From Azolla caroliniana (Eukaryota; Plantae; Polypodiophyta): DNA of 64,000 nt. Under the pieces are notes generated by a model, which saw only the letters and a list, made by a program, of their open reading frames with translations, was not told where the DNA came from and made no database searches. The stretch is from NCBI GenBank assembly GCA_043228905.1, contig JBHGNT010000017.1, positions 8,866,001-8,930,000 on the forward strand, in the 5' to 3' direction. Below are positions 2,003 through 40,160 of this stretch, piece after piece. A program made the translations under genes and the position numbers. The stretch's first letter is position 1; each line of letters opens with the position of its first letter.

Positions 2003-3389
2003 TGTTAGGAAACAGGTCCCTCCGGATGGGAAGTGAGAAGACCCGGTGAGAACCGGACGTGGAGTACCCGGCAAGGAAGACCTGGTGAGAACCGGATGAC
2101 GAGTGCCCGGCAAGAGCCGGATGATGCAGGCCCGGTAAGGAGTGCTCACCGGATGAAGGGACATATTCGTAAATATGTTTTTGAGAGTCCATTGGGGCTA
2201 TATTTGTAAATAGCCGAAAAGTCATATTAGTATAAATATGACTTAAGGCAAATTTAATGTAAAAAGAAAAGTTGACATTCTTGTTGGTGCAAGATTTGAG
2301 TGCGTTGTCGTGAAAAATTTCGTCCAGAGGCGGAAACCGGGAAATACTGGCTACATCGGCGGGGTGCACCATGTGCACTCACCCTCGTGTAATTGTGTGA
2401 AAAATAGGAGTTAAGTCGGGACGAAGAATCCCATGTACATCGGGATTTATCCCACATTGTAACGCATCCCTCTCCTTGTTTTATAAAAGGAAGGGATGGA
2501 CCCTTGTAGAAGGGTTGCCCATTTTGTATTAGTAGGGTATACTGTTAGACGGAGAGACGTTCTCTCTTTCTCTCTCTCTCTCTCTTGTTTTAGGGATTCT
2601 TCCTCTTGCTCCCCTCTTCTTCTTCTTCTTCTTCGTCCTCCTGTGCGTTGAGCCTTGATATCTAGCATTCCAGTTTTCTGTCCTGTACTCTGTGCAAGAC
2701 CCCGCTCGGCGTGACAAGCCCGAGAGCTCCCTGACCGGCGGCTTGGCAGTAGACGACGGTTGTACCTCGTGCGACCTAGGTCCGGCTTGAAGTCGGTGTT
2801 GAATCTCGTTGTCTTGTAAATACATATACATTTGGTTGTGCATATTCGGGCCTCTGTTGGTGTGCGTGTGTGTGTCTTAGTGTTTCTTTCTGGCTTATGT
2901 ACATGTTCATGTGAGAGTCAATGTTGCGTGCCTGCTCTCTCTCTCTCTCTCCCTCCAGTTTCTTCCAGTGTGGTCCTGGGGTGCCCTGGAAAGGGTGAAG
3001 CACGACTTCCTACGCTCCGTCACTCCCTAGTCCGAGACCCCCGTGGTCCCACCTTTCTCCACGCACGCGCGTAACAACGCGACAACGTAACTGTGTACAG
3101 AGAGAGAGAGAGAGAGGAAGAGGTCGTTGCCTCTGTTGTAACGGCCGCCTGTGGCGAAGATAGCAAGCTCGAGGTCATTGCCTTGGTGCTTTACTATTGT
3201 ACATTGTGATATAGTTATAGTTTGCAGTCTGTGGGCTGTCGTGGTTTTTCCCTAGTTTGGGTTTTCCACGTTAACATCCTGTGTACTCTTCTCTTTACTG
3301 TGTCATGCGTACATTACCCGTTTTTATGTGTTGGATCCTAGACTCGGTTGTGGCCGAGCGTTGTTCATCGAGAGCATGTACTCTTGTCA
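2003..3389 (+). repeat. Copia 5' LTR, interrupted by solo LTR 2306-3084
   Basis: Matches 8076-8679 once the insert and its 4-bp duplication are removed. Confidence 0.95.
2306..3084 (+). mobile_element. Solo LTR of the TGTCG...CGACA Gypsy family (779 bp)
   Basis: Termini TGTCGTG / CGCGACA. 4-bp TSD GCGT/ACGT (one mismatch). Absent from the sister Copia LTR. TATA-like TATAAAAG near 2482. Confidence 0.85.
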
Positions 3390-3392
3390 AAG

Positions 3393-3404
3393 TGGTATCA
3401 GAGC
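3393..3404 (+). promoter_or_regulatory. Primer-binding site, tRNA-iMet
   Basis: TGGTATCAGAGC, 3 nt after the LTR end. Confidence 0.95.
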
Positions 3405-6199
3405 GAAATGACACAGAAAATGGACGAATCGTTGGGAGGCATGTTCAAGATCACCGGCTCCAACTATTCCGTGTGGAAGTCGAAGATGATGGACATGCTC
3501 GTGGTTAAAGATCTTTGGTTGCCGGTTTAGTTCGGGGACAAGAGACCGGACAAAATCGATGCCACGATATGGGAGGTGATGCACATGAAGACAACGACGT
3601 ACATACGGTGCTTCATTGACATGAGTCTATACAACAACTTCAATGAAGAGAGCAAGGCTCATGAGCTCTGGGAGAAGATCAACATTATGTTTCAGAACAA
3701 AAATGCCATTAATCAGGTTTCGGTATTTCGGAAGCTAGTAAGACTCCGGTACCAAGATGGCTCCAGCATGGCGGAGCACATGAATGCCTTCCAGGGGCTG
3801 ATCCTCCAGGCAACATCATTGGAAGTACCTCTCACCGATGAGGTACTAGCACTACTCCTGCTCGGTTCCCTCCCAGATAGCTGGGAGACGTTGGTTGTCA
3901 CTTTGGGCAACGCCGGGCCAGAAGGAAATCGGTTATCCCTAGCAAGAGTGAAATCGAGCTTGCTAGATGAGGAAGTGCGTTGGAAAGATAAGGATACGAG
4001 CTCCGACTCCAAAGCACTCCTTACCGAATCGAAACGCGGAAGACAAAGGAACCGTAGTCCCCAGAACCGGGAAAAGTCGGGGACACGGTCAAAGTCAAGG
4101 GGAAGGCCTACTTGCTTCTATTGCGGGAAGCCGGGACACTTCCAGAAGAACTGTTGGCACTTCTGAAAAGACAAGGAAACCGACGGTACCGATTCGAAGC
4201 GGACACCAGACCAGAACGGTAAAGACCGGAGGGGGCTGGACCAGAAGGGAACGACTGCAATTGCGGCAAGTGAAGAAGAGTTGATGCTCATCACTGAGGA
4301 GAGTGAGTTGAACCTTGCCGACGACGAGATGACCTGGGTGGTCGACTCCGGAGCGTCATTCCACCTTACCCTAGACCAGAAATGCTTGTCATCCTACTCA
4401 GCCGGTAATCACGGTTGTGTTCGGATGGGGAATGAAGGTACATACCGAATTGTCGGCATAGGAGACGTGTGGTTGACAACACCAACCGGATGCAAGCTGC
4501 TGCTAAAGGATGTCTGACACATTCCGGAGGTTCGTCTGAACCTGATATCAGCCGGTCGGCTAGATGATGAAGGCTGCACAGGTAGCATCCGGAACAGTGT
4601 TATGAAGTTCAGCAAAGGGAGCCTGATTGTGGCTCGGTCCCGGAAGGTCAACACGTTGTACCTGATGAATGCCTGGTTATGTCCGGAGGAAGTGAACGTG
4701 GCAGCCGACACTGCCGGTGAGCTGTGGCACAAGAGGTTGTGTCACATGAGCGAGAAGGGGATGAAGAGGCTTGCAAACGACAACCTCATTCCAGTGAAGA
4801 ACGTGCACTTGGAGAAATGCACTGATTGTCTGGCCGATAAGCAAAACCAGACCTCCTTCCGACCAAGGCCACCGATGAGACATAATGCACCACTGGAGTT
4901 GGTGCATACTGATGTGTGTCAAGTGGACACGAATTCACATGCTGGATCGCAGTACTTCGTGACGTTCATAGATGACCACAGCCGGAAGCTGTGGGCCACA
5001 CCGTTGAAGACGAAGGATCAGGTGCTATCCGTCTTCGAAGAGCTCCACGTGAGAGTGGAAAGAGAAACTGGCCGGAAGCTGAAGGCCGTTCGAGCAGATA
5101 ACGGAGGAGAATACCGGGGGCAATTCGAGGAGTATTGCCGCTCGAAGGGAATCCGGCTCGAATTTACCATGCCGAAGACGCTGGAACTAAACGGGTTGGC
5201 CAAGAGGATGAACCGGACCATAATGGAGAGGGTTTGGAGTATGCTGGCGCATGCAAAATTACCCAAGAAGTTTTGGGGCTGAGGCGCTGTCGATGGTGAC
5301 ATATGTGATAAACAAATCACCCTCAGTACCCTTGGACGGAGACACGCCACAGAGAGTCTGGACCGGTAAGGAAGTGTCTTACCGGCATCTGAAGGTATTT
5401 GGGTGTCTCGCGTACGTGCATGTTGCGAAGGACCGGAGAGGAAAGTTGGATCCAAAGACCCGGCCATGCATATTCCTCGGTTACGGCGGCGATGAGTTCG
5501 GCTACCGAGTGTGGGACCCAGTTGACAAGAAGGTATTCCCGAGTCGAGATATTATCTTCATGAAGGACAAGACGCTCACCGACTGGGAGTCGGAGAAGAA
5601 GATAATGAACTCCAAGTCGACCGGTAAGGATCGATTCTACGATGAGCAGACCCAACCGACAAGAGACCGGTTAGCACTCGATGAACCAGTCGGTGACAGT
5701 AAGGAGACAAGACAGGCTGAAGAAGAAGGAATAGGTGAAACCGGAACCGGCCAAGACCCCGAATCGGATTCGGATGAAGAACAAATAGTGGAGCCAGTTG
5801 CCGAAGGTCAAAGACGGAGATATCCTCTCAGAGAGAGAAGGGCCCCCCGAAGATTTCCGGATGCAGAGCATGTGCTACTAACCGATGAGGGGGAGCCAGA
5901 AAGCTTTGAGGAAGCTAAAAGTGACGCCCATAGCCGCAAATGGTTAAGTACCATGCAGGATGAGATGGACTCCCTGCATGAGAACCATACGTACAAATTG
6001 GTGGAGTTGCCGAAAGGAAAGCGGGCACTCCGAAACAAGTGGGTGTACAAGTTGAAACCGGGAAATGCAGGCAACTCCCCGAGATACAAAGCCAGGATTG
6101 TGGTGAAGGGGTTCCAGCAGAAGAAGGGCGTGGACTTCGACGAGATATTTGCCCCGGTAGTAAAGATGACCTTCATCCGGACGGTGCTGAGTATAGCGG

Positions 6200-6890
6200 T
6201 GTCGTGCCTTTCGGCTCTGGATCGTTACGTGAGTCGGGTGGGAACCGCCGAGGTTTTGACTAGGAGGAAGAGGAATACAAATTAAGGCTAGTTATGAATA
6301 GTGGAAAGAGAAGTAAGATAGCAATCTCGTGAATCCCACGAGTTTAGTGTATCTTAAACAATATTTAGATTATAAGAGTAATTTAGATGGAAAAATTCGT
6401 GAATCCCACGAATATATTAGATTGATCAATCCTTGTATATTAATCAACAACCTTATACATATTTCTCTCCTCCTTATATAAAGATGGAAGAGGCTAAGCA
6501 TGGCTTCATGCTTTTTCACCAAAAGTGTCCATGCACACTAAATGTGCATGTGATGCTTTGTCATTTCCTAAGTATAGGGCTCATGCACGCTAGATGTGCA
6601 TGAGTCACTTTTTAATGTCACGTGTAAATAAAATATTCACCCCCTAAAGAATACATGATTTTTACCTTTTAATAAAGGTATGTGTAAATAAAGGTCTTAT
6701 ACGTATTAAATATATATATATAACACTAAAGATAAGTTATTACAATGGTAAAGTTGGGGTTTATCTACGTGGAGGTGCAGGGTTCGAATCCTGCCCTATA
6801 CACGTGATAAATGTTTTGATATATTATTTATTTATTTATATGTATCTAAAATCGGATATATTATTTTATGGTGTGGAATACACTACGACA
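6200..6890 (-). mobile_element. Solo LTR of the TGTCG family inserted in Copia RT (691 bp)
   Basis: Termini TGTCGT / ACGACA. Exact 4-bp TSD GCGG at 6196-6199 and 6891-6894. Removal restores RT SIAASMDLEV. Reverse-complement similarity to the LTR at 56828-57446. Confidence 0.92.
6738..6791 (+). promoter_or_regulatory. tRNA-like Pol III A-box/B-box module in LTR
   Basis: TATTACAATGG (6738) and GGTTCGAATCC (6781), starts 43 nt apart. Confidence 0.7.
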
Positions 6891-8060
6891 GCGGCAAGCA
6901 TGGACCTCGAGGTAGAGCAGCTGGACGTGAAGACGACATTCCTTCACGGTGACCTCGAAGAGGAGATCTACATGCAGCAACCGGAAGGATTCGTGGAGAA
7001 AGGGAAGGAGCACTTGGTTTGCTGGTTGAAGAAGAGCCTGTACGGACTGAAGCAGGCTCCCCGACAATGGTACCGGAAGTTCGACTCCTTCATGACCGAT
7101 CAAGGGTACCACAAGACGCAGGCCGATCACTGCGTGTTTGTGAAGAAGTTCGAAGGAAGCGACTTTCTAATACTCCTTGTGTACGTGGCAAGACAAATGT
7201 TGGGGATGCACATCATCCGGGACCGGTCAAAGAAGCAATTGTGGCTGTCACAGGAGAAATACGTGACAAAGGTGATTCAGCGGTTCAACATGTTAGAAGC
7301 TAAACCGGTCGGATCGACACTCCCAGAAAACTGTAGATTATTCGGTAAGAAAAGCCCGAAGTCGAAAGCAAAGAAGGTGGATATGATGAAGTTCCATATG
7401 TCTCTGCCGTTGGGAGCTTAATGTACGCAATGGTGTGTACCTGACCGGATATAGGATACGCAGTCGGAGTGGTGAGCTGGTTTATGAGCAATCTCGGCAA
7501 GGAGCACTGGAACGCGGTCAAATGGATACTCCGGTACTTGAAGGGCACTTCGAATATGTATCTCCGATTCGGCTCCGGTAAACCTGAACTTGATGGTTTT
7601 ACCGATTCAGACATGTCGACTGATGTGGATACCAGGCGGTCTACATTTGGGTATGTAATGACATATGCAAGGGGAGCTGTTTCGTGGCAGTCGAGGCTGC
7701 AGAAGACGGTTGCGTTGTCAACCACGGAGGCGGAGAACATGGCGGTTGTGGAAGCCAACAAGGAAATATTATGGATGAAGGACTTCATCGGTGAGCTCGG
7801 TATCCGGCAAGATGAATACCGGCTCTAATGCGACAGTCAAAGTGCCATCCACCTTACTAAGAACGCAACGTACCATTCCAGGACGAAGCACATCCAACGT
7901 AGGTATCACTAGATCTGGGAGGGAGTAGAAGATCGAGAGTTCGCGCTGATGAAGATCCACACAACCGAGAACGGGTCAGATATGCTGATGAAAGTGTTGA
8001 TACCCAACAAGCTAGATGCATTTCAGAAGCGGATCGGACTAGTATGACATCCCATGCCGG

Positions 8061-8073
8061 AGTGAAGGGGGAG
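8061..8073 (+). promoter_or_regulatory. Copia polypurine tract
   Basis: AGTGAAGGGGGAG immediately before the 3' LTR. Confidence 0.9.
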
Positions 8074-8075
8074 TT

Positions 8076-8679
8076 TGTTAGGAAACAGGTCCCTCCGGAT
8101 GGGAAGTGAGAAGACCCGGTGAGAACCAGACGTGGAGTACCCGGCAAGGAAGACCCGGTGAGAACCGGATGACGAGTGCCTGGCAAGAGCCGAATGATGC
8201 AGGCCCGATGAGGAGTGCTCACTGGATGAAGGGACATATTCGTAAATATGTTTTTGAGAGTCCATTGCGGCTATATTTGTAAATAGCCGAAAAGTCATAT
8301 TAGTATAAATATGACTTAGGGCAAACTTAGTGTAAAAAGAAAAGTTGTCAATCTTGTTGGTGCAAGATTTGAGTGCGTAACTATGTACAGAGAGAGAGAG
8401 AGAGAGGAAGAGGTCGTTGCCTCTGTTGTAACCGCTGCCTGTGGCGAAGATAGCAAGCTCGAGGTCGTTGCCTCAATGCTTTACTATTGTACATTGTGAT
8501 ATAGTGATAGTTTGCAGTCTGTGGGCTGCCGTGGTTTTTCTCTAGTTAGGGTTTTCCACGTTAACATCCTGTGTACTCTTCTCTTTACTATGTCGTGCGT
8601 ACATTACCCGTTTTTCTGTGTTTGATCCTAGACTTGGTTGTGGCCGAGCATTGTTCATCGAGAGCGTGTCCTCCTATCA
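8076..8679 (+). repeat. Copia 3' LTR (604 bp)
   Basis: TG...CA direct repeat of the 5' LTR, followed by TSD CTCCT. Confidence 0.95.
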
Positions 8680-8684
8680 CTCCT

Positions 8685-9319
8685 TCCTTTTTCTGTGATG
8701 AACCTCCCTCTGTCCAAACGGGCGTGTGCTTGGCAAGGAGTTGTTGCCGCTTCGATGGCTTGTTTGGTGTCGTATTGGCCGTTCGGCCCCGCGTATTTGC
8801 CTTAATTGTCAGCACCGACGGTAGTAGGAGAGTGAGGCATTGAGCCACTTCTGCCCACACCTTGTTGCCATGTACCACTGATTGTATGGCCGCTCGCAAA
8901 CAATCAGTGATGATTACATGCCAATCCACCTTTACCCCTTCGTATGTGGCGATGATGAATGCGGCTTTGTTCATTGGCATTGCCAGGGGTCGGGGGTGCA
9001 CAAACCCATACTCATGGAGCACACGAGCTACTTCTGGCAACAAGGCGTTGTCGCTGCCCTATGTCTAGTACGCTTTACTAGCCAGGGAGTACTCCCCGAA
9101 GAACTTCATTAGCATCTCTGGGAAAGGATTCTCAATGGAGTAGATCCCTCCCTCTGGCAATCCGATTAAGGCGCGGATGGCCTCCTCCGTGATTACTTCT
9201 AGGTCGATCTTCTTCGTGACCTTTTCTACTTCTTCGTGCGGAGGTGCCTCTCTTATCCGTAGGAAGCCCTTCAAGACATGTTGCGTGAACCATTTCTTGG
9301 TCGTCTCGTAAAGCGCCAT
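8685..9319 (-). pseudogene. N-terminal part of the P1 extra ORF
   Basis: MALYETTKKWF...FFGEYSLASKAY and EVARVLHEYGFVHPRP...ATYEGVKVDW match the P2 eORF N-terminus. Confidence 0.85.
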
Positions 9320-13881: not shown

Positions 13882-13964
13882 ACTTTGAATCCTTCCGGTC
13901 CAGAACCCCGGTGGTTCCACCTCACGATCCGCGCGTAGTGACGGATCTTCACGACATAATTAAG

Positions 13965-13982
13965 TGGTGAACCCGACGTGAA
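13965..13982 (+). promoter_or_regulatory. Primer-binding site complementary to tRNA-Trp
   Basis: TGGTGAACCCGACGTGAA is the reverse complement of the plant cytosolic tRNA-Trp 3' end (...UUCACGUCGGGUUCACCA, recalled). It lies 8 nt after the LTR. Confidence 0.8.
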
Positions 13983-14017
13983 AGAGGCGGTAGGAAGGAT
14001 CAAGTCGAGATTAATAC

Positions 14018-16222
14018 TTGGAGATGGCGTCATCAAGCAACCAAGCAGGAGAGCTCGAAAGGATGATGCTAATCGTCGAGCAAATGATGAGATCTCAGGA
14101 CAACGACGCGAGCGTGGAGAAGGCTGTCGATCGTGTCGTGGAGCTCGAGGACCAATTCGATGGAAGGAACGTTACGAAGTTCCTTGATGCATATAGACGG
14201 GAGATGAATCAGAGGGACGTGTCCGAGGCACGTCAAATCGTAAGCTTCAAGAGAGTTGTCACCAACAACATCCAAAGACGCGTCATCGAGCTTCAAGAAG
14301 GTAAGACAACATGGTCTAAGTTCGAGAAAACGATACTAGCAGAGTTCGTGACTAAAGACTCAACGAGGATAACTCGACATGCCCTGATGAAGTGGATAGA
14401 GAAGAAGAATAAGAAGATGAGCGTCTCGAGGGTGTACGACGAATTCAACCAGATGTTTAGTCATCTCCCCAATATGGACCAAGTGTTGCTGGAAGAAGAC
14501 AAGACTTTGTACTTCTTGAAGGCCGTGGACATAAAGGATAGACGGGAGTTGGGGACTCTTCTCGAAGATGATACCCAAGCAAATGGGCTTGTAGCGGACT
14601 GGATCGCGGTGAAGCGGGCATGCAATAGGCTCGACAAGCGTCGCCAATGGGTTGATGACACCGACATGACGGGATCTACTACCACGGAGAAAGCAAGACC
14701 GCCGAAAGTAGCTGAGCCGCCAAGACAAAGTAACGTGGAAGAAAAGAAGATCGATGACGACATCATTGAAGAGCTAGCGAAGAAGTTCGAGGAGGTCACG
14801 CTAGCCAACATGAATCGTCGGGGCCCTAAAGGAAAAGAACCCTTTAGATGCGTGTGGTGCGATAGCATGGACCACATGAGAAGGGATTGTGCGAGCCTTC
14901 GAGAGGCGATTCGACAAAATATCGTATACATAGAGGACAACATGATCTGCTCAAGCGAGACTAGAAGACCCCTACGGGTGAATTTCGGAAGAGGAGGAAT
15001 GAAGAGATCTATGGAGGATGCCGATGCGACTCATGTGGATGCGATGCACTATGCTGCGTCGGCCGGAATAAGAGTCGGGAAAGACAAGACTGAAGCTGCT
15101 AGAGCGGGAGCAAAGTTTTGGACTTCCGTTCTCGAATATGAGAAGAATGGAAAAATCACATCGAACGAGGTAGAACTTGTGGACCGAAGCATGCAAAGCA
15201 TAACCGGGTGGTCGGATCCGGTGGACGACAACACCATACTCGCAGAGGTGATGTGCGACAACCACGAGGTGTTCGTCGAAGAAAAGAGAAAGAGAATAGA
15301 AGAGCAAGGCCCATCTAAAAGACATGAAACAAGGAACGCGAAAAAGAAGGATGATGCGGAGACGAGTCGACCTTTACAAACGGAGGAACGAGAATCAAGC
15401 CAAAAAGGGGAGCCGAGCATACGAGTTGAAGAAACGGTTCGGCCCGTGAAGGTTGGTGTCGAAGACCCCGCTCGGAGGACAAGGACTACACCTACCTATA
15501 AGCTAAGGTCGGACATAGAGCAGACGACGGACCTAAAGAAGATTCTCGAAGAACGAGTTCTTGATAGCCACGTAACTTTGTCCTTAAGGGAATTGCTTGG
15601 CATTACGAAGAAGGAGTTCCATGACACGATCGTGGACCTTGTAAAGAGAAAGAGACAACAATCGGACGAGGAAGAAGAGAAGCCGCAAAAAGCAAAAACG
15701 AATGCCATAACGATGGCAAGAGACGAAATCGATGAAGATATGGTGGACAGCCACTACACTCGACCTCATTGGGCACGAGCGACAACAGAGACGCCGGTGA
15801 AGATCGGGGAGAAGAAAGAGACCATGGTAGCCTTGATCGACCACGGCTCGGAGATCAACCTCATGTCAACCGACTTCTACAAAAAAGGAAGATGGCCAAT
15901 CAATACAAACCACGGATGGAAGATTCGCGCGGCAACAAAGTCTACGGAGGATTTGTACGGAGCTTGTCCCAATGTCAGAGTCACGATCGGGGATGTGGAG
16001 ATGGAACAACACTTCTTCGTACAAGAATCGGCGTCGCATCCTTTCATCCTAGGGCAACCTTATATCACATCATCTCGGATGGAGACCAAAGTGTTCGATA
16101 ATGGAGCAGCCTTCGCACGAATAAAGAGTCTTGACAACCAAAGATCGGTCCAATTCCTAACGGTGCGAGCCCATCATTAAAGGAATCAAGATAGTCTCGG
16201 AGGCGAATCCTCGGATTTTTAG
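14018..16222 (+). pseudogene. Element A ORF1: Gag plus aspartic protease
   Basis: 720-aa ORF with CVWCDSMDHMRRDC knuckle and ALIDHGSEIN protease. One premature TAA at 16178. The natural stop TAG at 16220-16222 is shared with copies B and C. Confidence 0.88.
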
Positions 16223-19200
16223 AGTGGACTATTGAAGCATGGGGCACAAATAGTCCGAGCAATCACAAGACCCCACAAGAAAGAAGAGTGCGTGGATTGC
16301 AAGGAGAAGCAACATGTGTCACACCTAGTGGCGCATGTAAACTAGTACTACCCGACAAGAAGCACAAGCGCCGGATACAAGAATTCGAGAAGATGCTGAA
16401 AGAAGAGAATATAATAGAAGAAGGAGAGTTCGTGACTCATATTATGGAAGAAGCCTCATTTAACAACACCATCGGCGAAATTGAGGACGTCGTGGACTTG
16501 AGCTATCTTCACAACCAACGCGTGATTTCGGTTAACTCCGTCAACATGTACGCTATCATCGATGAATACCGTCGTGGCATCTCGATGAAGGAAGCTAACA
16601 TCAACACGAAATATAAAATGGTGGATAAGAAGATCAAGCCAGTTGCGGTTCCGCTACCGGAAGATAGCTGGCAAAATATGAAGGAAGTCGCTAACGATCC
16701 AAGCTTAAGAGATCCGAAGAAGATAGGTCATGACTTCACCAAAGAGACGAAGGGGAAGCTACAAGTTGGAAAGGAGGATTTCCTTCTCCCTAAAGAGGAG
16801 CGAATGTTTCACGATATGCTTGAGAGACATGGGAAGGCTTTCGCATTCTTCCCACGAGAAATCGGATGCGCCGACCCAAAGGTTATAGAGCCGATGGTGA
16901 TCTTTACGGTGCCTCATGTGCCTTGGAATTTGAAACCGATACCCGTTCCGAGAGCACACCTTCCGAAGCTGATCGAGCTCTTAAAGGAGAAGGTGAGTAT
17001 GGGAATTCTAGAACCGTCGAATGCTCCTTATTCCAATAGGTGGTTCACGGTGCCAAAGAAGAATGGATCATTGCGATTCATCCAGGATCTTCAACCCGTC
17101 AACAAGGTGACAATTCGAAATGCCGGAATCGGTCCGAGTGTGGACGAATTTGCCGAAGCGTTTGCGGGCTGGTCCATCTACTCCATTGGCGATCTCTACT
17201 CCGGATATGACCAATTCCAATTGGCGATTGACAGTCGGGACATTACAACCATGAGGACTCCGATCGGGCTTGTGCGGATGTGTACCTTACCCCAAGGCGC
17301 AACGAACTCGGTGGCTCATATGGTGAATGCCATGAATAAAGTCTTGAAGGATTGCATTCCGGACATCACGATGCCATTCTTGGATGATATTCCGATAAAA
17401 GGATGTTCGGATGAGGAGAAAGATGAATCGAAAGATAAGGAAGGTTGTAGAAAGTTCGTTGCTGATCATATGAAAGATTGCGAGAAGGTGCTTCAAAGGC
17501 TCGAAGATGCGAATTTGACATTTTCGGGAGAAAAATCCGCATTCGGGCAACCGGAGATCTTGGTGGTAGGTCACTTGTGTGGAGCATACGGCCGGAAGCC
17601 CTCGCCATCCAAAGTGAACGCAATCCAAGACATGAAAGAAGAATGCGAAAACCAAACGGAGGTTCGAAGGTTCCTTGGAGCGTGCGCATTTGATCATATA
17701 TGGATTCCTCACTACGCTCATGTCGCCGAACCGTTATATGGACTACTAAAGAAAAGAATAAAGTTCGAATGGCGAGACGAGCACACAAAGGCGATGTGAA
17801 GATTAAAGAAACTGCTTCTTGAAGCTCCGGCACTAAGGAAGGCTGACTATGCCGAAGGGAAACCAATTTACATGACCGTAGATATGAGTCCAACCGGAAT
17901 CGGGTGGGTCATTAACCAAGAAGGTGAAGATAATGCGCGATATGCCGTCCGGTTCAGAGCAAAGGTTCTTAGCAAACGGCAACAAAGATATGCCCAAGTC
18001 AAGCGGGAACTTTGGGGTATTGTGTCAGCAGTGAAGACGGACAAAGATTACCTGATCAGGTCAGAAGTGATAATAGAGACAGATTGTCTCCCAATTCTCG
18101 GAATGGTCTCGGGATGTGCGACCCTAGATCTTGCTATGCTAAGGTGGATCACCTACATCAAGTCTTTAAACCTAGAGATCCGTCACATTGCAGGGAAGAA
18201 GAACGCCATGGCTGACATGCTGTCGAGGGCAAGATTTTCAAATGGAAGTAACATGGTTTCGGAAGATGAAGATATCGCCCTTGACTTCTTCAAGATGGCT
18301 CGATTGTCGGTAGAAGTCCAGGACACGCAAACCCTCCACGCCTTCAACGAGAACGAGTACGAAGGAGAGTGGTTACTCATTGGTAGATTCCTAAGAACAT
18401 TGACGGCAGATGCTTCGTTGACAAAGGAGGAGGCCCTACGAATCTAAAAGAAAGCTTACCGATACTTCTTGAAGGGAGGATTCCTTTGGCGACATCCAAA
18501 AAGAGGGACAGGAATACCACGTCGAGTGGTGGTAAAGAAAGAAGAGCAAGAGACGCTGATGACCGAATTCCACGAGACTGCTTGGGCAGGTCATAGAGGA
18601 ACATGGGCGACGTTCGAAAAGTTGAAGGAGAAGTACTGGTGGCCAAGCATGTACAAAGATGTACTCCATTTCGTGTCCACATGTGAAACTTGCCAAGTAT
18701 ATTCAAATATACGTCATCGTGATGAGTTAAAGCCGACATACCCACTCACCATACACTTCAAATGGATGGTGGATCTGGTCTCGATGCCAATGGGAGTGGG
18801 ACAAATGAAGTACTTAGCGCTGGCAAGGGAAGACTTGACAAATCAAGTGGAAGGACGAGCCTTGACAAATAAGATGACTTCAGCCGTTTGCAAATTTCTA
18901 CTTGAAGATGTTGTTTGCCAATATGGATGTGTGGGGAAGATAGTGGCCGACCGAGGGGAGTTGGATGCGCACGAAGTGATGGAGCTCTTCGAAAGACTAG
19001 GCGTGAAGCTCTCCCTAACGACTGCCTACAATCCGGAAGCAAATGGGAAGATCGAGCGAGGGCATGGACCTATCGTTAAAGCCATCGTACGGGCATGCAA
19101 CGGTCGAGTCGGGAATTGGCCACGACTATTACCCTATGCCTTGTGGGCCGATAGAACGACACATAGCTCGGTGACAGGGTATATGCCGACAGAGCTTATG

Positions 19201-19407
19201 TATGGACAAAAGCCGATTATGCCCATCGAAAGGACGATCGCCTCATGGGTAGCGATACCGTGGGAGAACGAGATGAGCCGAGAAGAGTTATTAGCCGCGC
19301 GAATAAGGCAACTTGAAAGAAGACCTGAAGATTTAGAAAAAGCGCGAAATATGATGAAGGCAGCCCGAGTAAAGAACAAAGTTCGGTTCGACAACACGAA
19401 TCGACTT
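16219..19407 (+). pseudogene. Element A ORF2: RT-RNaseH-integrase in the -1 frame, with in-frame stops
   Basis: YSNRWFTVPKKNG, LPQGATNS, PFLDD, TVDMSPTGIG, HRG...CETC, DRGE, ERGHGP. Confidence 0.92.
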
Positions 19408-19777
19408 TGTTGTATGTATGGCTGGACTAGCCGCAACACAGGTGTCTATCCGACACTTCTCCAAAGGGTGGTAGGGATAGGATGTTAATACACGCGTATG
19501 ATAATTACACTTAAGCACAGACGAAGACAAGATTAATCAGCATAAGCAAAACTATATTAATTCTTCGCGCTTTCATTACAAAACATCGGATCCTTTTATA
19601 GGCATCCGGCCAGATTACAATCGGTGCTCGGTAGGCAACCGTTAACCGAAACCGAATCGGTTCGGATCCGGATCGGTTACAACTACCGGATCCGTCCCTC
19701 CTAATAATTCTATTCCTATTTCTATATTTATCCGATCCGACCTTGCTTTCCCATTTGCCTTCTCTGACCGGTCAACA
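19408..19777 (-). repeat. P2 3' LTR
   Basis: TGTTG...CAACA, identical to 29134-29503. Confidence 0.97.
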
Positions 19778-19827
19778 CATGGCACGCCCGTGGGAAAGTG
19801 CATTGCACTTCGAACCCACAGCCGGCT

Positions 19828-22692
19828 TCAGTCTTCCTCCAACTTGTCAGGCAAACTCCGCTCCGAGGTTTCAAGTGTTGTTTTGCCTGTGCCGTCTCCG
19901 ACGTCCGATTGGATTGGCTGCCTTTTCGCATCTTGCTGCTCCGACTCTGCTTGTACCGGTGGTACCGGTGTTTCTTCTGTATCCTGTCCGGGTCTGTCCT
20001 GCTCCACCTCCGTTCCGTTCCCGGTATCGCTCTCTCCGGTTTCCACTGGTTGTGTCCTTTCCTCCCCGGATTCGGTACTTCTCTGTCTCCACTCTGCATC
20101 ATCCCCGGCATCAACCTGCTCTTGCTCCGGAAGTTCTTCCTCGGGTAATTCTTGTCGGGGTGCGTCGTTGTCGGTTGGGTTCTCTTCAGCCGATCGCTCG
20201 CCCTCACTGATGGAGATCGGCGTTGTGCGTCCCTCGGCTTCCTGTCGCACTCGGTCCTTCTCGTACCCTTCCAATTCCAGTTGGGTTTCGAGCTGCCCGT
20301 CATCCAACCTCTCTACTAACCCTCGGATTTCCTTGAGATGCTCTTCTGCTAGGGCATAGAAATCCTCCGACAATTCTTCCCGGATGTTGACGATACTTTC
20401 TTCGTCCATTTTATAGAACCCATCTCCGTTTTTCTTCCGATTTTCTGCATCAGCTCGGAGTATCTGCAGTTCAGCTGCCTGTTGTGCCCATTCCTTCCAG
20501 AGTTTCTCCGTGCTTTCATTTATGCTGGCCTGAGCTCGGGTACTCCAGCTTGACATGATGAACTTAATTCGGTCAACCCCTGCTTTAGCCTGTTCCGAAG
20601 CTGCTTGTTTTTCCTTCCTTATCCGTTTGATGATGTCGGCCATTAACTGAGCTTGAGTTTCAGAGTCGACTTTTTGCTTGTCACAGGTACTCCGCCATTT
20701 GTTGATTTCGAAAGTCGACTTCACTTTTTCCTCGTTCCAACTCTTTGTCAGCTCCCCTACTTTCTGCCGAAGTACTTCCATCTCTTTTCTTTGTTCCGAC
20801 GTCAAGGTCTTCTCCACCGATACTTCCTCCCTTGCTTTGGACAATTCCAAGCGGTTTTCCTTGAGCTGCTCTTTCAGCTTCTCTATCTGTCGGTCGTACG
20901 TTGCTGCCTGATTCTTGATGTCCGACGTGGCCTGTTTATAATCCTTACATAGTCGGTCGAATTCCTCCGTCTTCTGTTTTAGGCGTCGGTTCGCCTGATC
21001 TCGCAACCGATCATCCCGGTCCTTCTGTTGTCGGAGTTCCTCTCGCAACCGCTCGATTTCTTGCTCCATTCGTCGGCGCAGCCTATTTTTTTCCTTTTGC
21101 AGTGTCCCGTTTTCTTCTTGTAGTCGGTCATTGGTGGCTTTGCTTCGGCGAAGGCCTTCCTCCATTCGCCGTCTGTCGTCTTCTACCAACTTCCGCTGTT
21201 CTCTTTCGTTATCTCTCAATGCCTCCTGAGCCTGTAATTCTTCTTTCAAAGTTGCTATTAACTTCTCGGTCTCAGGGCCGGTTTGCAAGGCCTTCTCCGT
21301 TTCTGGTTCGGCTTGCTTTTCTGATGTCCCGACCGGCTCGGTGCCATCTTGCGCTTGTCGGCTGCCTTCTTTTGCCTGTGCTAGCTCTTCTTGCAGCCCA
21401 TGTAATTGTGCCCGGAGCATGACCATATCTTTAGTCGTCGTCCTAGTTACTTGTTCCCTTTGCTCCTCCTCTTTCTCCATCTGGTCTGCCACTCCCGACA
21501 ACTGCCCTGACACCCACCTTAGCCATTGTGCCTTTGTTCTGCCTTCGTTGGTGTCAGCAGGCGTACCTAGCTCCGACTGTTTTTCCGGCTGTTTCTCCGG
21601 CCTCTTCTCTTGTTCCGGCGCTTGTTCCTTTCTTTGTTCCTCGAACTCCGCTGCCGTCGGTTCCGGTACTGCCGTCTCTGGTGCAGACGGACCTTCATCC
21701 TGTGTCGCTTCTGTTCCGGTTACTGGAGGCGGTTCTTTTGCCCTTTGCTGAGTTCCGTCCGCTGTTGGGGTCGGTCTTGTCGCTCGTTTCTCCTTTCCTT
21801 GCCTGGGTGGTAGTATTAACCTTGGTTCGGATGAGTCTTCCTCTGTTTCAGCGTCCTCCGTCGGTGCCACTATTGGTTCCTTTACTGGTACCGGTTCCGA
21901 TTCGAGCGTTACTGGTTCCGTGTCGGTTTGCCTCTTGCTAGTCTTCTTTGCCAGCTTCTCTTTGCCTTTTTCCGCCTTTTTCTTCTTCATTGTCGGTTGC
22001 TGTTGCTGTTTCTGTGGCTGCCGTGATGGGCCTTCGTCCCGTTGCTGTCGGGATGAGTCTTCTTCCCGCGGCGCTTCTTCTTTCTGTGTCCATCCTGGGG
22101 TGTGTTTCTCTAGTATTCGTCGGCGCTTCATGGTTTGCTTCGGGGTAGTCTCCTGCCGACTTCTTTGCTTGTGCTTGATGGGGGACACCGGTGGGACCAA
22201 CACTGTTAACCATTGGGATATTCCGGCCCATGGCTTCTTCCCTTCCACCAAGTGCTTTATCGCCTCTTTCAGTCCTTCGGTGATGAAGTGGAGCCAGTCC
22301 ACCTGCAGGCCTTCGAATGTCGCGATGACGATCGCTGCTCGGTATTTGGCTATGGCTGCCGGACGAGGGTTCACGAACCCGTACTCCATCAGGGCGCGGG
22401 CCACCTCTCCGAACAGCAGGTTTTCTCCGCCCTGTGTGCGATACGCCTTGCTGCTAAGGGAATATTCGCCGAAATACTCGAAGAATATTTGGCTCGAGGG
22501 TAGCTCTATTGTTTGAAGTCCTCCCTCCGAAATCCCTGTGAGCGCTTGTACCGCTCCTTCAGTGACCTCTGCTAAGTCCACCGCTGTTGCCGCCTGCTCT
22601 GGTTCCTTGTGTGGTGGAGCGTCAGCGACCCGCAGCAGCCCTCCTAATCCGTTCTCTGTCAGCCATTGTCGCGCTCCGTCCGACAGTGCCAT
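19828..22692 (-). CDS. P2 extra ORF (about 954 aa from MALSDG; open to 22896): globular N-terminal domain, acidic linker, long coiled coil, acidic tail
   Basis: Open 1022-codon frame. Start chosen by homology to P1 MALYET. TATATAAA lies about 140 bp upstream (22828-22836). Confidence 0.85.
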   Translation of the reverse strand: MALSDGARQWLTENGLGGLLRVADAPPHKEPEQAATAVDLAEVTEGAVQALTGISEGGLQTIELPSSQIFFEYFGEYSLSSKAYRTQGGENLLFGEVARALMEYGFVNPRPAAIAKYRAAIVIATFEGLQVDWLHFITEGLKEAIKHLVEGKKPWAGISQWLTVLVPPVSPIKHKQRSRQETTPKQTMKRRRILEKHTPGWTQKEEAPREEDSSRQQRDEGPSRQPQKQQQQPTMKKKKAEKGKEKLAKKTSKRQTDTEPVTLESEPVPVKEPIVAPTEDAETEEDSSEPRLILPPRQGKEKRATRPTPTADGTQQRAKEPPPVTGTEATQDEGPSAPETAVPEPTAAEFEEQRKEQAPEQEKRPEKQPEKQSELGTPADTNEGRTKAQWLRWVSGQLSGVADQMEKEEEQREQVTRTTTKDMVMLRAQLHGLQEELAQAKEGSRQAQDGTEPVGTSEKQAEPETEKALQTGPETEKLIATLKEELQAQEALRDNEREQRKLVEDDRRRMEEGLRRSKATNDRLQEENGTLQKEKNRLRRRMEQEIERLREELRQQKDRDDRLRDQANRRLKQKTEEFDRLCKDYKQATSDIKNQAATYDRQIEKLKEQLKENRLELSKAREEVSVEKTLTSEQRKEMEVLRQKVGELTKSWNEEKVKSTFEINKWRSTCDKQKVDSETQAQLMADIIKRIRKEKQAASEQAKAGVDRIKFIMSSWSTRAQASINESTEKLWKEWAQQAAELQILRADAENRKKNGDGFYKMDEESIVNIREELSEDFYALAEEHLKEIRGLVERLDDGQLETQLELEGYEKDRVRQEAEGRTTPISISEGERSAEENPTDNDAPRQELPEEELPEQEQVDAGDDAEWRQRSTESGEERTQPVETGESDTGNGTEVEQDRPGQDTEETPVPPVQAESEQQDAKRQPIQSDVGDGTGKTTLETSERSLPDKLEED

Positions 22693-23324
22693 CGCTTCTT
22701 CTTCGTCTGCTGCTGCCTGTGGTCTGAGGTCGGGGTGTAGGTGTTCTGCGCGTCGGATCTTGCTGTCTTGAGCCTGCGTTTGCTTGTGGGAAAATTCGTA
22801 AAAAGTGAACCCTTCCCCGGTTCTTCCTTTATATAGTGGCGTTTCCCTCGAGCCGCCTTTTCCTGTTTTTCGCGCGTCCCCTGCCATAATTAGCATGTCA
22901 CTCTTTAATTTTCGACGGCTACACGTGTTCTGCCATAATTAGCATGTAACTATTTAATTCTGACGGCTGCACGTGTTCTGCCTATTTTTGGCGCCTGCGC
23001 ATGCTGTGTCATGAATAGTATGTCTGTCCTTTGCTGCCGCGTGTCATGCTTGCGTTTCTTTGCCGCGTGTGTCGAATCTCCTACGTGTCTGTCATTATGA
23101 CTCCTTAATTGACGCGCATTTTAAATCCTGTACCTCGGCCCCCCACGTTCTGTGCTTTAAATAGCTCGTGCACCCGTCTGACGGTTGTAACTACCTCCTT
23201 CATCATTACCATGATTTTTCTTGATCTTCTTGACCGTAGCACCACGTCATCATTTCTTTTTTTCTTTTTTTATTTTATTTTTTTTTTATTTTTTTTTATT
23301 TTTTATTTTTTTACATATGCCGCA

Positions 23325-26300
23325 TCATTGTTCGGTTCCCCCCGATGTGTTCGGGTCGGTGCGCACTGTTGTCGGTTCCTCGTCGTTGTTACGCGTCGGT
23401 GTCGGTTCCTCGCCATTCGGGTTTTCCGGGTCTTGCTTGAAGGGGTTAGCTGGCATGTGCCCCTTATACGGTTTTAGGCGAAAACCATTTGCCCATTTGC
23501 CCACAACTTCTCCTGACAACGTCCCGAGCTGGTAAGACCCATTGTACTCCTTTGTGATCCAGAATGGTCCGGTCCACCGAAATCGCAATTTCCCTGGCAT
23601 GCTCCCCATCCTTGTCTGGAACAGTAATACCGGTTTCCCGATCTCGAATTCCTTTTCGTTACCGCGCCGGTGTCGGTCTACAAAGGCTTTCCTCCTCCTT
23701 TGCTCTAGTTCTAGCTGTAGCAGGCTGGCTATTCGATTTTCTTCCAGTTCTAACAGCATCTTCAGCCGGATTCGTTCGGATTCCTTCTCGCTTAACCGCT
23801 CCTTAACCTGTATTCTTAAGCTAGGAATTTGGAATTCTACTGGCATGACTGCTTCCAAGCCGAATGCCAGTCGGAACGGGGTCGTCCGGATGCTAGTCTT
23901 GTACGCCGTTCGGTACGCCCACAGCACGCTCTGCAACTTCGTGTCCCAGTCGGTCCGGTTCTCATTGACAATTTTTCTAAGGATGTTCTGTAGCGTCTTA
24001 TTCGTTGATTCCGCTAATCCGTTGGCTTGAGGGTAGTAGGGAGTGCTTCGTTTGTGTACTACCGCATAGAATGATGTCAAACTTTCCACCACCTGCCCGA
24101 GAAAATGTCCTCCCTGGTCACTGATCAGCTCAATCGGGCATCCGTACCGACACCATATGCATTCATATAAAAATTTGGCCGTGGACGCCGCCGTGTTGTC
24201 CCGTAGTGCCTTTGCTTCTACCCATTTGGTGCAGTAGTCGGTAGCCACTATTATATACCGATTTCCGGTTCGCATTGCCGGTGGCTTGAAGGGGCCGACA
24301 AAGTCCAAGCCCCACTTTTGGAATGGTTCTAATGGCAAGACCGGGTGATGTGGCATCCGGGCCTGCTCCGTGGGTTGGCCCAGTCGTTGACACAGGTCGC
24401 ATTCCCTGCTATACTTAACGGCATCTCTCATGGTAGTCGGCCACCATAGTCCGCTCTGCCATATCTTCCGGGCTGTTGTTTCGCCGGCATAATGCCCGCC
24501 TGCAATTCCACAGTGGGCTTCCCTCAGGATCAGATCCTTTTCATCGCTCCGCACTGCTCGCCTCCATACGCCATCTGCCCCCTTGTGATAGAGGGTGTCT
24601 CCTACCAAGCAGAAATGTCTGCTCCGTACTGCCATCCTCTTCCGTTCGTCTCGGTCCAAGTTTTCCGGGGGAACTCCGGTGCTCAGGAACTGATGCATTT
24701 CGGTTAACCATTTGTCTTCGTCCGCTACTGTGGTCTCCGTTACCGGTGCCGTCGTGACCTTAAACAGCTCGGCGTCGGGAAATTCATCCTGTACGCCGTC
24801 CCCTGATTCTCCGGATTCTAGTCTGCTCAGGTAGTCTGCTACCGCATGCTGCACCCCGGGTCGGTGGAAAATGTCGAATTCGAATTCCTGTAATAGCAGC
24901 GTCCACCGTGCGAGTTTTCCTGTCAGGGCTGCCTTTGAGACTAGGTAGAGTAGTGCCGAGTGGTCAACGTGGAAGGAGAACTTTCGTCCGAGCAGATAGT
25001 GCCTGTACTTTGTGACGCTGTACACCATTCCTAATGCCTCTCGTTCCGTTGTAGAGTAGTTCTGTTCGGCTTTCGAGAGTTTCCTGCTTGCGTAGTACAC
25101 CGGCCGATACCATTTCGGTTCCGTGAGTTGCATCAAAACACTGCCGATTGCTACGTCCGACGCGTCGACGAAGACGTGAAAGCTTTTACTCCAGTCCGGC
25201 GGCTGCACCACCGGAGCTTGTGACAGCATGACCTTCAACGCTTGGTAGGCTGCCTCCTCCGTTTCTGTCCATTGGAAAGGTACTCTATGTACAGCAGCGT
25301 GCAATGGTGTCGCAAAGTCGGCAAGGTGCCGTATCATCCGACTATGCCACCTTATTTGACCAAGGAATCGGCTTAAAGCTTTTGCGCTATTCGGTGCCGG
25401 TGCGTCGAGAATTGCTTTTACCTTATCCGGATCTACCGCGATTCCTTCTCGACTCACCACGTGGCCTAACAAATTGCCGCTTGCGACTCCAAAGACGCAC
25501 TTAGCCGGGTTCAGACTTAATCGGTACTCGCGGCACTTTTCTAAGCATAGTCGTAGGTGATCGAAATGCTCTCCGTGTCGGCTGTAGACGGCGAAATCGT
25601 CTAGGAAGACCTGCATAAAACCGGGAATAAAATCACCGAAGATTTCCATAATTATCCTTTGAAATGTTGCAGGGGCTGTCTTTAATCCGAACATCATCAC
25701 GACCGCGACGAACACTCCCCATTCCGTCACGAACGCTGTTTTTTCTTGGTCGGCCGGGTTCATTCGGATTTGGTTGTAGCCGCTGAATCCGTCCAGGAAG
25801 CTGTAAACTTCGTGGCCGGCCACCGCATCTAGCACTCCGTCCGTGAATGGTAGTGGAAAAGTGTCGGTCACTGTCGCGGCATTTAGTTTCCTGTAGTCCA
25901 CACATACCCGGATTTTGCCGTTCTTTTTCGGGACCACCACTATCGGGCTTAGCCAGGTTGCCTGCTTGACTGGTCGGATAAATCCGACCCGGAGAAGCTT
26001 GTCTATTTCCTCCTTCACCTTTGCCGCATAGTTTGGATTCATCCGGTACCGACGTTGAGCGATGGGTTTCGCGTCAGTACTTAGATGAATTTGGTGCTGG
26101 TAGGGTTGGGGGTCCAACCCTCGCATGTCTTCGTATGACCATGCGAACACGTCCTTGAATTCCGTTAACAGTGCTACCATTGCCTGTTTTTCCTCCTTTG
26201 GCAATTCCTTCGCGACTTTTACCGGTCGGGGTTGTTCTGTTGTGCCGAGGTCCACCTCTTCCAGCTGAGATGCTTTCACCCTTTGGGATATCGTCATTTC

Positions 26301-29081: not shown

Positions 29082-29117
29082 CCATCCCCCGGTTGTCCTC
29101 TGCACTCTGCAGGAATC

Positions 29118-29127
29118 GTGGTCGCCA
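29118..29127 (-). promoter_or_regulatory. P2 primer-binding site, probably tRNA-Arg
   Basis: TGGCGACCAC, 6 nt inside the 5' LTR. The homologous TGGTGACCAC in P1 is at 56665-56674. Confidence 0.75.
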
Positions 29128-29133
29128 AAATAG

Positions 29134-29503
29134 TGTTGTATGTATGGCTGGACTAGCCGCAACACAGGTGTCTATCCGACACTTCTCCAAAGGGTGGTAG
29201 GGATAGGATGTTAATACACGCGTATGATAATTACACTTAAGCACAGACGAAGACAAGATTAATCAGCATAAGCAAAACTATATTAATTCTTCGCGCTTTC
29301 ATTACAAAACATCGGATCCTTTTATAGGCATCCGGCCAGATTACAATCGGTGCTCGGTAGGCAACCGTTAACCGAAACCGAATCGGTTCGGATCCGGATC
29401 GGTTACAACTACCGGATCCGTCCCTCCTAATAATTCTATTCCTATTTCTATATTTATCCGATCCGACCTTGCTTTCCCATTTGCCTTCTCTGACCGGTCA
29501 ACA
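29134..29503 (-). repeat. P2 5' LTR
   Basis: Identical to 19408-19777. Confidence 0.97.
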
Positions 29504-29508
29504 GACTT

Positions 29509-29808
29509 CATTCCAAGAAGATTGAAGAAGGGGATTGGGTTTTGGTTTACGACAGCACCCTTGACAATCAACACAGTACAACAAGGAAGTTTGCAAGAAG
29601 ATGGTTCGGGCCATATGTGGTGACAAGTGCCAACGATAATGCCACATACCACCTTGCGGAACTAGACGGATCAAGGTTGGTCGTACCCATTGCGGGAAAA
29701 AGAGTAAAGATTTTCAAGAAAAGACAAGACAAGGATCCTGACCTCGATTACCTCGACGATAAACATAATAGGCCGTATGAAAATGAAGACATGGAGGAAT
29801 CTAATTGA
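29509..29808 (+). pseudogene. C-terminus of element A integrase (GPY motif)
   Basis: DWVLVYDSTLDNQHSTTRKFARRWFGPY matches the C-terminus of element C integrase. Confidence 0.9.
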
Positions 29809-29880
29809 TCATCATAGCCGAAATCTCACTTTCTCTCTTCTTGGCACGTACGGGAGGACGTGCGGTTTGGTGGGGGTGGA

Positions 29881-30955
29881 TGTCGTGAAGATTTTCGGCA
29901 ATAGTGTGAAAATCCCATAAAACGTATGAAATCGAGTATGAATCACATAATACAATAATTGTGAAGATAACATTTTTAATATCTAAATACAAAATGATGG
30001 AGGTTTCGAATGCACTTTATTACACGAGAAATGGACAACTAAATGTCAAGATATGAGGGTATAAAGTTTGTGAAAAGAAAAGAGAAAATTCTGAGATATC
30101 CCACATAGGCACGACAAATACGGCTCTCATCATATATAAGGTGGAGCAAAAGATATTATCTTTGTGTCTATGTGTGGAGCATAGAGAGTTCAAGGTAACT
30201 TGAACTAAGAGTGGAGGTGGGCTAGCTACTCGTAAAGGGTTTTGGCCAACCAAAACCGGACCGGCGATGGAGACGGTGAACCGACGGCACCGGCATCCAG
30301 CAACGGCATCCGGCGAGGCACCAGTAACCGACGGCATCCGGCGACGGTACCCGGCGAGGCACCGGTATCCGGCGACTATATAAATAAATATATAAATATA
30401 TATACAAATATACATATACAAGGAGGGGAAGTAAGGATTCGAACCTTGCACCTCCGAGTTATGAGTCAATTGGCTTACCATTAAGCCATGCTATTTAGCT
30501 AAAATTATATTTCTATCATTGTACTTTTACATGTAAAATCTCATACGTGAGAGCTAAAATGAGTGACATGGTTATCATGCACCACATGTAATACATAAGC
30601 GCCAAATGGCAAAAATGCAATTTATGCATGTCTTGTACCCTCACATGCATCATATGCATGAGAGCATCTATAAAAGAAGGAAGGGGGAGGAGAAAAAACA
30701 CGGCTTTTTTTATGAAAATTAAGAGGAAGAAATTCGTTATCAAATTGATCGTGTAACTTGTTTCTTAAATCTAAAGTTAAAACTTCAATCAATCTCTCTC
30801 AATCGTGTGATCTCAACTTCTCTCTTTCCCAATCTATCTTAAGTACTTTCTCGCTAAAGCTTACGCCAAAGCTTGTACCGACTTTGAATCCTTCCGGTCC
30901 AGAACCCCGGCGGTTCCGCCTCACGATCCGCGCGTAGTGACGGATCTTCACGACA
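29881..30955 (+). repeat. Element A 3' LTR (1075 bp)
   Basis: TGTCGTGAAG...CTTCACGACA perfect 10-bp terminal inverted repeat. Preceded by GGTGGGGGTGGA. TATAAAAG near 30669. Confidence 0.92.
30435..30488 (-). promoter_or_regulatory. tRNA(Met)-like Pol III A-box/B-box module in the A LTR
   Basis: Minus strand reads TGGCTTAATGGTAAGCC...CTCATAA...GGTTCGAATCC. D-arm GGCTT/AAGCC pairs. No acceptor stem. Confidence 0.8.
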
Positions 30956-40102: not shown

Positions 40103-40160
40103 TCCTAGCTTCTATCTCTCTCAGTTCCTACTAATCTCTTATTCCTCTTTTCTTTCATCC

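What the first reader, a model, noticed from the sequence alone, without database searches (positions are those of the whole stretch)
6196..6894. Gypsy family with 4-bp target duplications always centred on CpG
Seen: all six insertion sites of the TGTCG...CGACA family read N-C-G-N. Both flanks are visible for GCGT/ACGT (2302/3085), GCGG (6196/6891) and CCGC (54780/56070). One flank is visible for ACGG (30956), ACGC (56824) and TCGT (59622). The 4-bp length is confirmed by restoring the Copia RT frame and by comparing sister LTRs. The other LTR families here make 5-bp TSDs with no shared core (CTCCT, GACTT, ATGGA, ATCGT, GTCAT). Inference: an integrase without a chromodomain that reads CpG, possibly methyl-CpG, directly would steer insertions into methylated TE DNA. 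All six sites are inside other TEs.
Basis: partly seen in the sequence, partly recalled or inferred. Interest (0 to 1): 0.8.

Follow-up and report, generated by a model that had tools for sequence, protein, structure and literature searches.

The report
CpG-centred insertions of Phygy-type retrotransposons
These plant retrotransposons do insert at 4-base sites centred on CG, a preference already published for the moss Phygy lineage that they likely belong to; the integrase likely picks the CG sequence itself, and a role for DNA methylation is untested.

Summary
Three solo LTRs carry 4-bp duplications with a central CG (GCGT/ACGT, GCGG, CCGC). Three other insertions show one NCGN flank each. 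Outside the window, 78 of 93 flanks found without looking at the flank have CG at positions 2-3, against 5% background.

The six insertions are several families of one Ty3/gypsy lineage, not one family. The lineage has no chromodomain, no archaeal RNase H, one element of about 8.0 kb and a tRNA-Trp-type primer site. This matches Phygy, for which Neumann et al. 2019 (PMC6317226) already report 4-bp NCGN duplications in 186 elements. No Phygy reference sequence was available, so membership rests on features, not on a tree.

The methyl-CpG inference is neither shown nor excluded. The window is LTR-retrotransposon DNA wherever I mapped it, so 'all six inside TEs' is uninformative. No methyl-binding domain was found, and the target pattern fits the known rule for 4-bp integrases.

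Small additions: a palindromic target V-CG-B with ACGT favoured and G next, and a conserved Glu at the position of PFV Ala188. Verdict: real, already described, mechanism open.

The parts
6200..6890 (-). Solo LTR S2 (691 bp) inserted in the Copia RT gene
   Evidence: TGTCG...CGACA termini; 78% identical over 385 bp to LTR 57069-57446; orientation from end alignments
6196..6199 (.). TSD GCGG, left copy (right copy 6891-6894)
2306..3084 (+). Solo LTR S1 (779 bp) in the Copia 5' LTR; TSD GCGT 2302-2305 / ACGT 3085-3088
   Evidence: sister LTR empty site; U5 motif matches pattern; the same LTR end precedes the lineage's primer site in L078, L086, L138
54784..56069 (+). Solo LTR S3 (1286 bp); TSD CCGC 54780-54783 / 56070-56073
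   Evidence: sister LTR empty site; 1290-base skip in 4 of 4 runs; tied to the lineage only by termini and an aligned U5 motif
13882..30955 (+). Element E4: 75-bp remnant of the 5' LTR, primer site, gag-pro-pol, polypurine tract, 3' LTR 29881-30955; interrupted by another element at 19408-29503; 3' flank ACGG 30956-30959
   Evidence: about 8.0 kb without the nested element and with a full 5' LTR
13965..13982 (+). Primer-binding site; tRNA-Trp type (tRNA identity recalled)
   Evidence: same site behind 25 of 121 LTR ends in metagenome loci; its complement is an abundant CCA-ending plant small RNA, 'miR894'
56828..59625 (+). Element E5: LTR start (TATCG), internal deletion, protease-RT; 5' flank ACGC 56824-56827
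59626..64000 (-). Element E6 inserted in the RT of E5: 3' LTR 59626-60257, RT-RNase H 61342-62997; flank TCGT 59622-59625; runs off the window
60331..61341 (-). E6 integrase core and SH3-like C-terminal domain, no chromodomain; Glu88 aligns with PFV Ala188
2003..8679 (+). Host Ty1/copia element (TSD CTCCT) that received S1 and S2

Best explanation
These are several families of a chromodomain-less Ty3/gypsy lineage, likely Phygy, that insert with a 4-bp duplication centred on CG, likely because the integrase itself selects the target sequence and likely without needing the CG to be methylated. Shown: 4-bp duplications; central CG in about 85% of flanks; a palindromic V-CG-B pattern; an integrase made of zinc finger, catalytic core and SH3-like domain only. 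Inferred from retroviral integrases: a 4-bp stagger needs a sharp bend at the central pyrimidine-purine step, and T at the first position is disfavoured. Inferred and untested: base contacts narrow that step to CG, with the conserved basic loop of the SH3-like domain (His259, Arg263, Lys264 in the E6 numbering) as candidates, while Glu88 may set the G that follows the duplication. The TG and CA exceptions are likely methylated CG sites that decayed after insertion.
For: 78 of 93 distinct non-primer flanks have CG at positions 2-3, background 5.0%, p=2e-85; CG at other offsets 0-14 of 93. Loose-end consensus at an LTR start begins ACGT in 3 of 4 runs (18, 26, 23 contigs; the fourth run's row was not shown). 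First position A51/C18/G17/T7 mirrors fourth position T46/G21/C20/A6, matching the T/A avoidance and central YR rule for 4-bp retroviral integrases (PMC4422553), whose local preferences are largely independent of chromatin. Phygy features match: 4 bp, NCGN, 7.7-10 kb, tRNA-Trp, no extra domain. 0 of 21 proteins scanned show a chromo or methyl-binding Pfam family at E<=0.1, while a neighbouring chromovirus scores Chromo 2.6e-14. The fold is closest to PFV and Ty3 integrases. Drosophila ZAM integrase binds and targets CGCGCg directly (PMC2527525 abstract) in a host with next to no CpG methylation (recalled).
Against: No Phygy reference sequence was available, so there is no tree test. Flexibility alone predicts TA, CA and TG as well; these are as common as or more common than CG in the flanks (6.5-7.0% each vs 3.9%) yet make up 9 of 90 sites, so an additional CG-specific readout is needed and I did not demonstrate one. 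TE DNA here looks CG- and CHG-methylated (transitions at 23 of 128 CG, 11 of 88 CHG, 17 of 480 CHH positions), so many targets may have been methylated. A review reports that cytosine methylation created strong target preferences for an avian retroviral integrase in vitro. In short-read contigs only 2 of 15 solo-like LTRs had identical 4-mers on both sides, no more than chance (mean 1.9).
Confidence: 0.68

Rival explanations
1. The integrase prefers or requires 5-methyl-CpG at the centre of the target, by direct contact or through methylation-altered DNA shape, and so steers insertions into silenced TE DNA without a chromodomain.
For: CG is chosen over the other flexible steps. TE DNA here shows methylation-type decay. 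At least 34 of 84 flanks match TE sequence of this one window (no control). 8 of 13 non-CG flanks are TG or CA. Methylation changed retroviral target choice in vitro (review passage). Phygy nested in Tcn1 is reported in P. patens.
Against: No methyl-binding domain. Methylation after insertion explains the TG/CA decay equally well. TE-in-TE insertion is expected in a TE-rich genome. ZAM targets CG-rich sites in Drosophila. A C5 methyl group is modelled to clash at the joining position in PFV, though that is not the central step.
Confidence: 0.17
2. A host CG-binding or G-box-binding protein tethers the integration complex, and the integrase is not itself sequence-selective.
For: The favoured extended site resembles CACGTG: ACGT in 28 of 78 CG flanks, G at the next position in 46 of 93. 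Ty3 shows that a host factor can position an integrase precisely (entry 7q5b).
Against: A protein bound on the motif would block the cut sites (inference). The pattern is centred on the duplication and symmetric, as expected of the integrase dimer. The 5' side shows no clear C before the site (C 7, T 8 of 23).
Confidence: 0.07
3. The elements are a separate lineage (for example TatI-related or unnamed) that shares the 4-bp NCGN target with Phygy.
For: TatI also has 4-bp TSDs, a tRNA-Trp primer site and about 9 kb length. No Physcomitrium protein appeared among the listed hits.
Against: TatI carries an archaeal RNase H in 100% of elements and no separate one was found here. NCGN is reported only for Phygy. 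RT is only 25-30% identical to the other two Gypsy RTs compared in the window.
Confidence: 0.07
4. The pattern is a selection or boundary artefact of six hand-picked junctions.
For: Small in-window sample; three sites are one-sided; LTR ends themselves contain CG; an A precedes two of the TSDs.
Against: Flank-blind search gives 78 of 93; empty sites in sister LTRs and in reads.
Confidence: 0.01

Closest known systems
Phygy lineage, non-chromovirus Ty3/gypsy of Physcomitrium patens (Neumann et al. 2019, PMC6317226; passages and supplementary table read)
   Same: 4-bp TSD, NCGN motif, length within 7.7-10 kb, tRNA-Trp-type primer site, no extra domain, coding region filling most of the interior.
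   Different: Host here is unnamed; nearest named relatives are Riccia and Adiantum proteins. The finer V-CG-B pattern, the G after the site and Glu88 were not in the passages I read. No direct sequence comparison with Phygy was possible.
ZAM of Drosophila (PMC2527525, abstract only)
   Same: Ty3/gypsy integrase that selects a CG-centred target; 4-bp TSD.
   Different: Animal element with a longer consensus, CGCGCg; DNA binding and nicking were shown in vitro for ZAM, not for these elements.
4-bp retroviral integrases PFV and MLV (PMC4422553, abstract and sections 6 and 14)
   Same: Central YR step, T and A avoided at the first and last TSD positions, same integrase fold.
   Different: Their YR enrichment is modest (63% above random on average); here the step is almost always CG. 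They have small neutral residues where this lineage has Glu.
TatI and Selgy
   Same: Non-chromovirus lineages with 4-bp TSDs; TatI also uses tRNA-Trp.
   Different: TatI has an archaeal RNase H; Selgy is about 5 kb and uses tRNA-Ala; neither is listed with NCGN.

Membership tests
Phygy | 4-bp TSD | tested here: met
   3 of 3 two-sided sites in the window; 1290-base skip; CG register on both flanks. Short-read solo-like LTRs did not confirm it (2 of 15).
Phygy | NCGN target motif | tested here: met
   6 of 6 in the window; 78 of 93 outside
Phygy | Ty3/gypsy domain order GAG-PROT-RT-RH-INT with no chromodomain | tested here: met
Phygy | No archaeal RNase H or other extra domain; no extra ORF | tested here: met
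   RVT_3 only weak and overlapping the RNase H; about 75 bp between integrase stop and 3' LTR in E4 and E6
Phygy | Length 7.7-10 kb | tested here: met
   E4 about 7,970 bp, computed assuming a full 5' LTR; one element only
Phygy | Primer site complementary to tRNA-Trp | tested here: inconclusive
   One conserved site whose complement is a CCA-ending plant small RNA. That this is the tRNA-Trp 3' end is recalled; searches did not confirm it.
Phygy | Monophyly with REXdb Phygy RT/RH/INT domains | not testable with these tools
   Reference files too large to read; the tree has no Phygy reference
TatI | Archaeal RNase H domain | tested here: not met
Chromovirus | Chromodomain at the integrase C-terminus | tested here: not met
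   0 of 21 proteins; positive control at 44075-45655
Selgy | About 5 kb length (4.4-6.7 kb) | tested here: not met
   E4 about 8.0 kb
Methyl-CpG-reading integrase (hypothesis) | Preference for methylated over unmethylated CG | not testable with these tools
   No methylome, genome or assay available

The most novel reading that the evidence does not exclude
The Phygy-type integrase reads 5-methyl-CpG directly at the centre of its target, using its own catalytic-core and SH3-loop residues, and so sends new copies into silenced DNA without a chromodomain: an LTR integrase that targets by a DNA methylation mark.
Probability: 0.14. Interest if true: 0.78.

Novelty: new member of a known kind. Interest (0 to 1): 0.27.

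Why it matters
As it stands, the finding extends a one-line 2019 observation (Phygy inserts at NCGN) to further families in another, probably non-seed, plant and sharpens the motif. Among plant LTR lineages this is the only one reported with a sequence-specific target. I found no test of its mechanism in searches. The conserved Glu at a known target-contact position gives a concrete residue to test. If methyl-CpG were required, it would be a new route to heterochromatin targeting, and context-specific methylation mutants exist in P. patens (abstract).

Tried and rejected
No host genome is held, so no genome-wide count of paired TSDs was possible. The protein atlas gave no result.

The primer-site motif in viral contigs gave 31 loci and no tRNA gene, and relatives were absent from viral contigs. 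The P. patens RLG2 transcript was cut at 400 letters and could not be linked to Phygy or to these elements. Literature did not confirm miR894 as a tRNA-Trp fragment. Kitamura 1992 is not held. No earlier scan findings matched.

Pairing 5' and 3' flanks in short-read contigs gave 2 of 15 identical, equal to chance. I read this as chimeric assembly across near-identical LTRs or ectopic recombination, which is an inference.

Rejected: DNA transposons with terminal inverted repeats, because the ends share a U5 motif, primer site and polypurine tract with RT-coding elements. Rejected: 5-bp TSDs (see observation check). Rejected: a single family, because LTRs S1 and S3 have no blastn match to the others and RT identity is 74-82%. 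The TE content of flanks (34 of 84) has no control and was not used as a test of targeting.

Full report
Setting. No host genome is held. The window is a nest of LTR retrotransposons wherever I could assign it. The nearest named relatives of the lineage in question are liverwort (Riccia, up to 60% identity over the full query) and fern (Adiantum) proteins; closer relatives, up to 79% over the full query, are unnamed metagenome proteins. The host is therefore probably a non-seed land plant, which is an inference.

The observation. Three solo LTRs have both flanks: S1 (2306-3084, GCGT/ACGT), S2 (6200-6890, GCGG/GCGG) and S3 (54784-56069, CCGC/CCGC). For S1 and S3 the sister LTR of the host element shows the empty site with one copy of the 4-mer. 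Contigs from 4 of 4 public runs laid on the S3 region skip 1290 bases, the insert plus 4. The frame test at S2 is open for duplications of 1, 4 or 7 bases and closed for 0, 2, 3, 5 and 6. A 5-bp reading that takes the LTR's last A as host DNA fits S2 and S3 but not S1, and both LTRs of element E4 end in that A. Three more junctions (30956, 56824, 59622) are one-sided. With local CG frequencies of 3-6%, chance gives 7e-5 for three sites and 1e-8 for six. The five 5-bp TSDs of other elements are confirmed.

Family or lineage. S1 and S3 have no blastn match to the other LTRs, and the RT domains of E4, E5 and E6 are 74-82% identical. All ends share TGTCG...CGACA and an aligned U5 motif. S1-type ends are followed by the lineage's primer site in metagenome loci. 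S3 has the weakest link. The insertions are thus several families of one lineage, whose RT is only 25-30% identical to the two other Gypsy RTs compared.

Test outside the window. Of 121 ends, 25 were followed by the primer site, 1 had no flank and 95 had other DNA; 93 of these were distinct. 78 of 93 have CG at positions 2-3 against 5.0% background (p=2e-85). Dropping one cut primer site and two probable bacterial matches gives 77 of 90, and 8 of the 13 exceptions are TG or CA. On the 5' side 14 of 23 candidate flanks, false starts included, have CG at -3/-2. That register fixes the duplication at 4 bp. Nearly all of the 80 loci listed with names come from one series of assemblies and from close relatives of the window's elements, so this is many insertion events but few hosts. 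Separately, contigs ending at the E6 LTR start give a flank consensus beginning ACGT in 3 of 4 runs (18, 26 and 23 contigs). Against my reading, only 2 of 15 solo-like LTRs in the short-read contigs had matching 4-mers on both sides, equal to chance.

Finer motif. First position A51/C18/G17/T7 mirrors fourth position T46/G21/C20/A6, and G follows the site in 46 of 93 (p=1e-7). The target is a palindromic V-CG-B with ACGT the commonest.

What is known. Neumann et al. 2019 (PMC6317226; passages and Additional file 5 read) state that Phygy elements prefer NCGN and list 186 elements with 4-bp TSDs (100%), 7.7-10 kb length, tRNA-Trp primer sites (81%) and no extra domain. Jedlicka et al. 2019 (PMC6911290; passages) report 4-bp TSDs as typical of Phygy, GC-rich centres in 4-bp TSDs, and Phygy nested in Tcn1. 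E4 comes to about 8.0 kb, has no chromodomain or separate archaeal RNase H, and has a conserved primer site that I recall as tRNA-Trp; its complement is the CCA-ending small RNA miR894 (PMC5846777; passages). Additional files 1 and 3 of Neumann et al., which hold the element list and sequences, could not be read, so a tree test was not possible and those files may already show the finer motif.

Mechanism. The predicted E6 integrase (mean pLDDT 80.7) has a catalytic core, an SH3-like domain and a short low-confidence tail, and is closest to PFV and Ty3 integrases. For 4-bp retroviral integrases the central step is a flexible YR, T and A are avoided at the first and last positions, and local preference is largely independent of chromatin (PMC4422553; abstract, sections 6 and 14). 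The data here fit that rule but are much stricter: TA, CA and TG are each more common than CG in the flanks and are rarely used. Some CG-specific readout is therefore likely. Glu88, kept in 69 of 72 aligned sequences, aligns with PFV Ala188 (allowing for the 3-residue offset of the chain numbering), a position where retroviruses have small neutral residues that shape flanking-base choice. His259, Arg263 and Lys264 lie in a conserved loop of the SH3-like domain. Their roles are untested. ZAM shows that a gypsy-type integrase can bind a CG-rich target directly (PMC2527525; abstract).

Methylation. Sister LTRs differ by transitions at 23 of 128 CG, 11 of 88 CHG and 17 of 480 CHH positions (rough, because C or G was assumed ancestral), so TE DNA here is probably methylated. 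That explains the TG/CA exceptions as later decay, and it does not show that targets were methylated at insertion. At least 34 of 84 flanks match TE sequence, without a control. A review notes that cytosine methylation created strong targets for an avian retroviral integrase in vitro (PMC11054761; passage; the original was not available). The idea stays open at modest odds. Searches showed no test of it for Phygy.

Verdict. The feature is real and well supported. It is most likely a further set of Phygy-type families showing a published target preference. Novelty: new member of a known kind. Interest 0.27. The methyl-CpG reading has probability about 0.14 and would deserve about 0.78.

Noticed in passing
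window 19408-29503: Young Gypsy element on the minus strand: 370-bp LTRs 100% identical, a 1948-aa gag-pol frame and a 1036-aa extra frame between pol and the 3' LTR, rich in predicted coiled coil, with only a weak Pfam hit (DUF4200, E=0.003). TSD GACTT.
   Followed up: partly
window 1-2002, 8680-13881, 30956-31584, 56407-56827: These pieces all match the 19408-29503 element in order and look like one older relative that received the Copia element, E4, the 31585-56406 element and E5.
   Followed up: partly
window 13965-13982; L034-L143: The primer site is the exact complement of the plant small RNA called miR894, first reported in moss and mapped to gypsy repeats in Cryptomeria. It may be a tRNA 3' fragment able to target this lineage (inference).
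   Followed up: partly
window 6398-6825, 30400-30700, 57069-57446: LTRs of S2, E4 and E5 contain an AT-rich segment with a tRNA-like GGTTCGAA/GATTCGAA box, possibly a captured SINE or MITE fragment inside the LTR.
   Followed up: no
window 39652-46059: Chromovirus with a clear chromodomain, TSD ATCGT, containing a Copia-related solo LTR at 41565-42330 with TSD GTCAT.
   Followed up: partly
window 14015-16180: The gag region of the lineage hits DUF4100 (E=4e-5), as do several Riccia relatives; the function of this domain is unknown.
   Followed up: no
window 37552-37936, 41583-41866, 46392-47158, 55033-55330: Short tandem arrays (83-bp, 54-bp and others) inside LTRs or internal regions.
   Followed up: no
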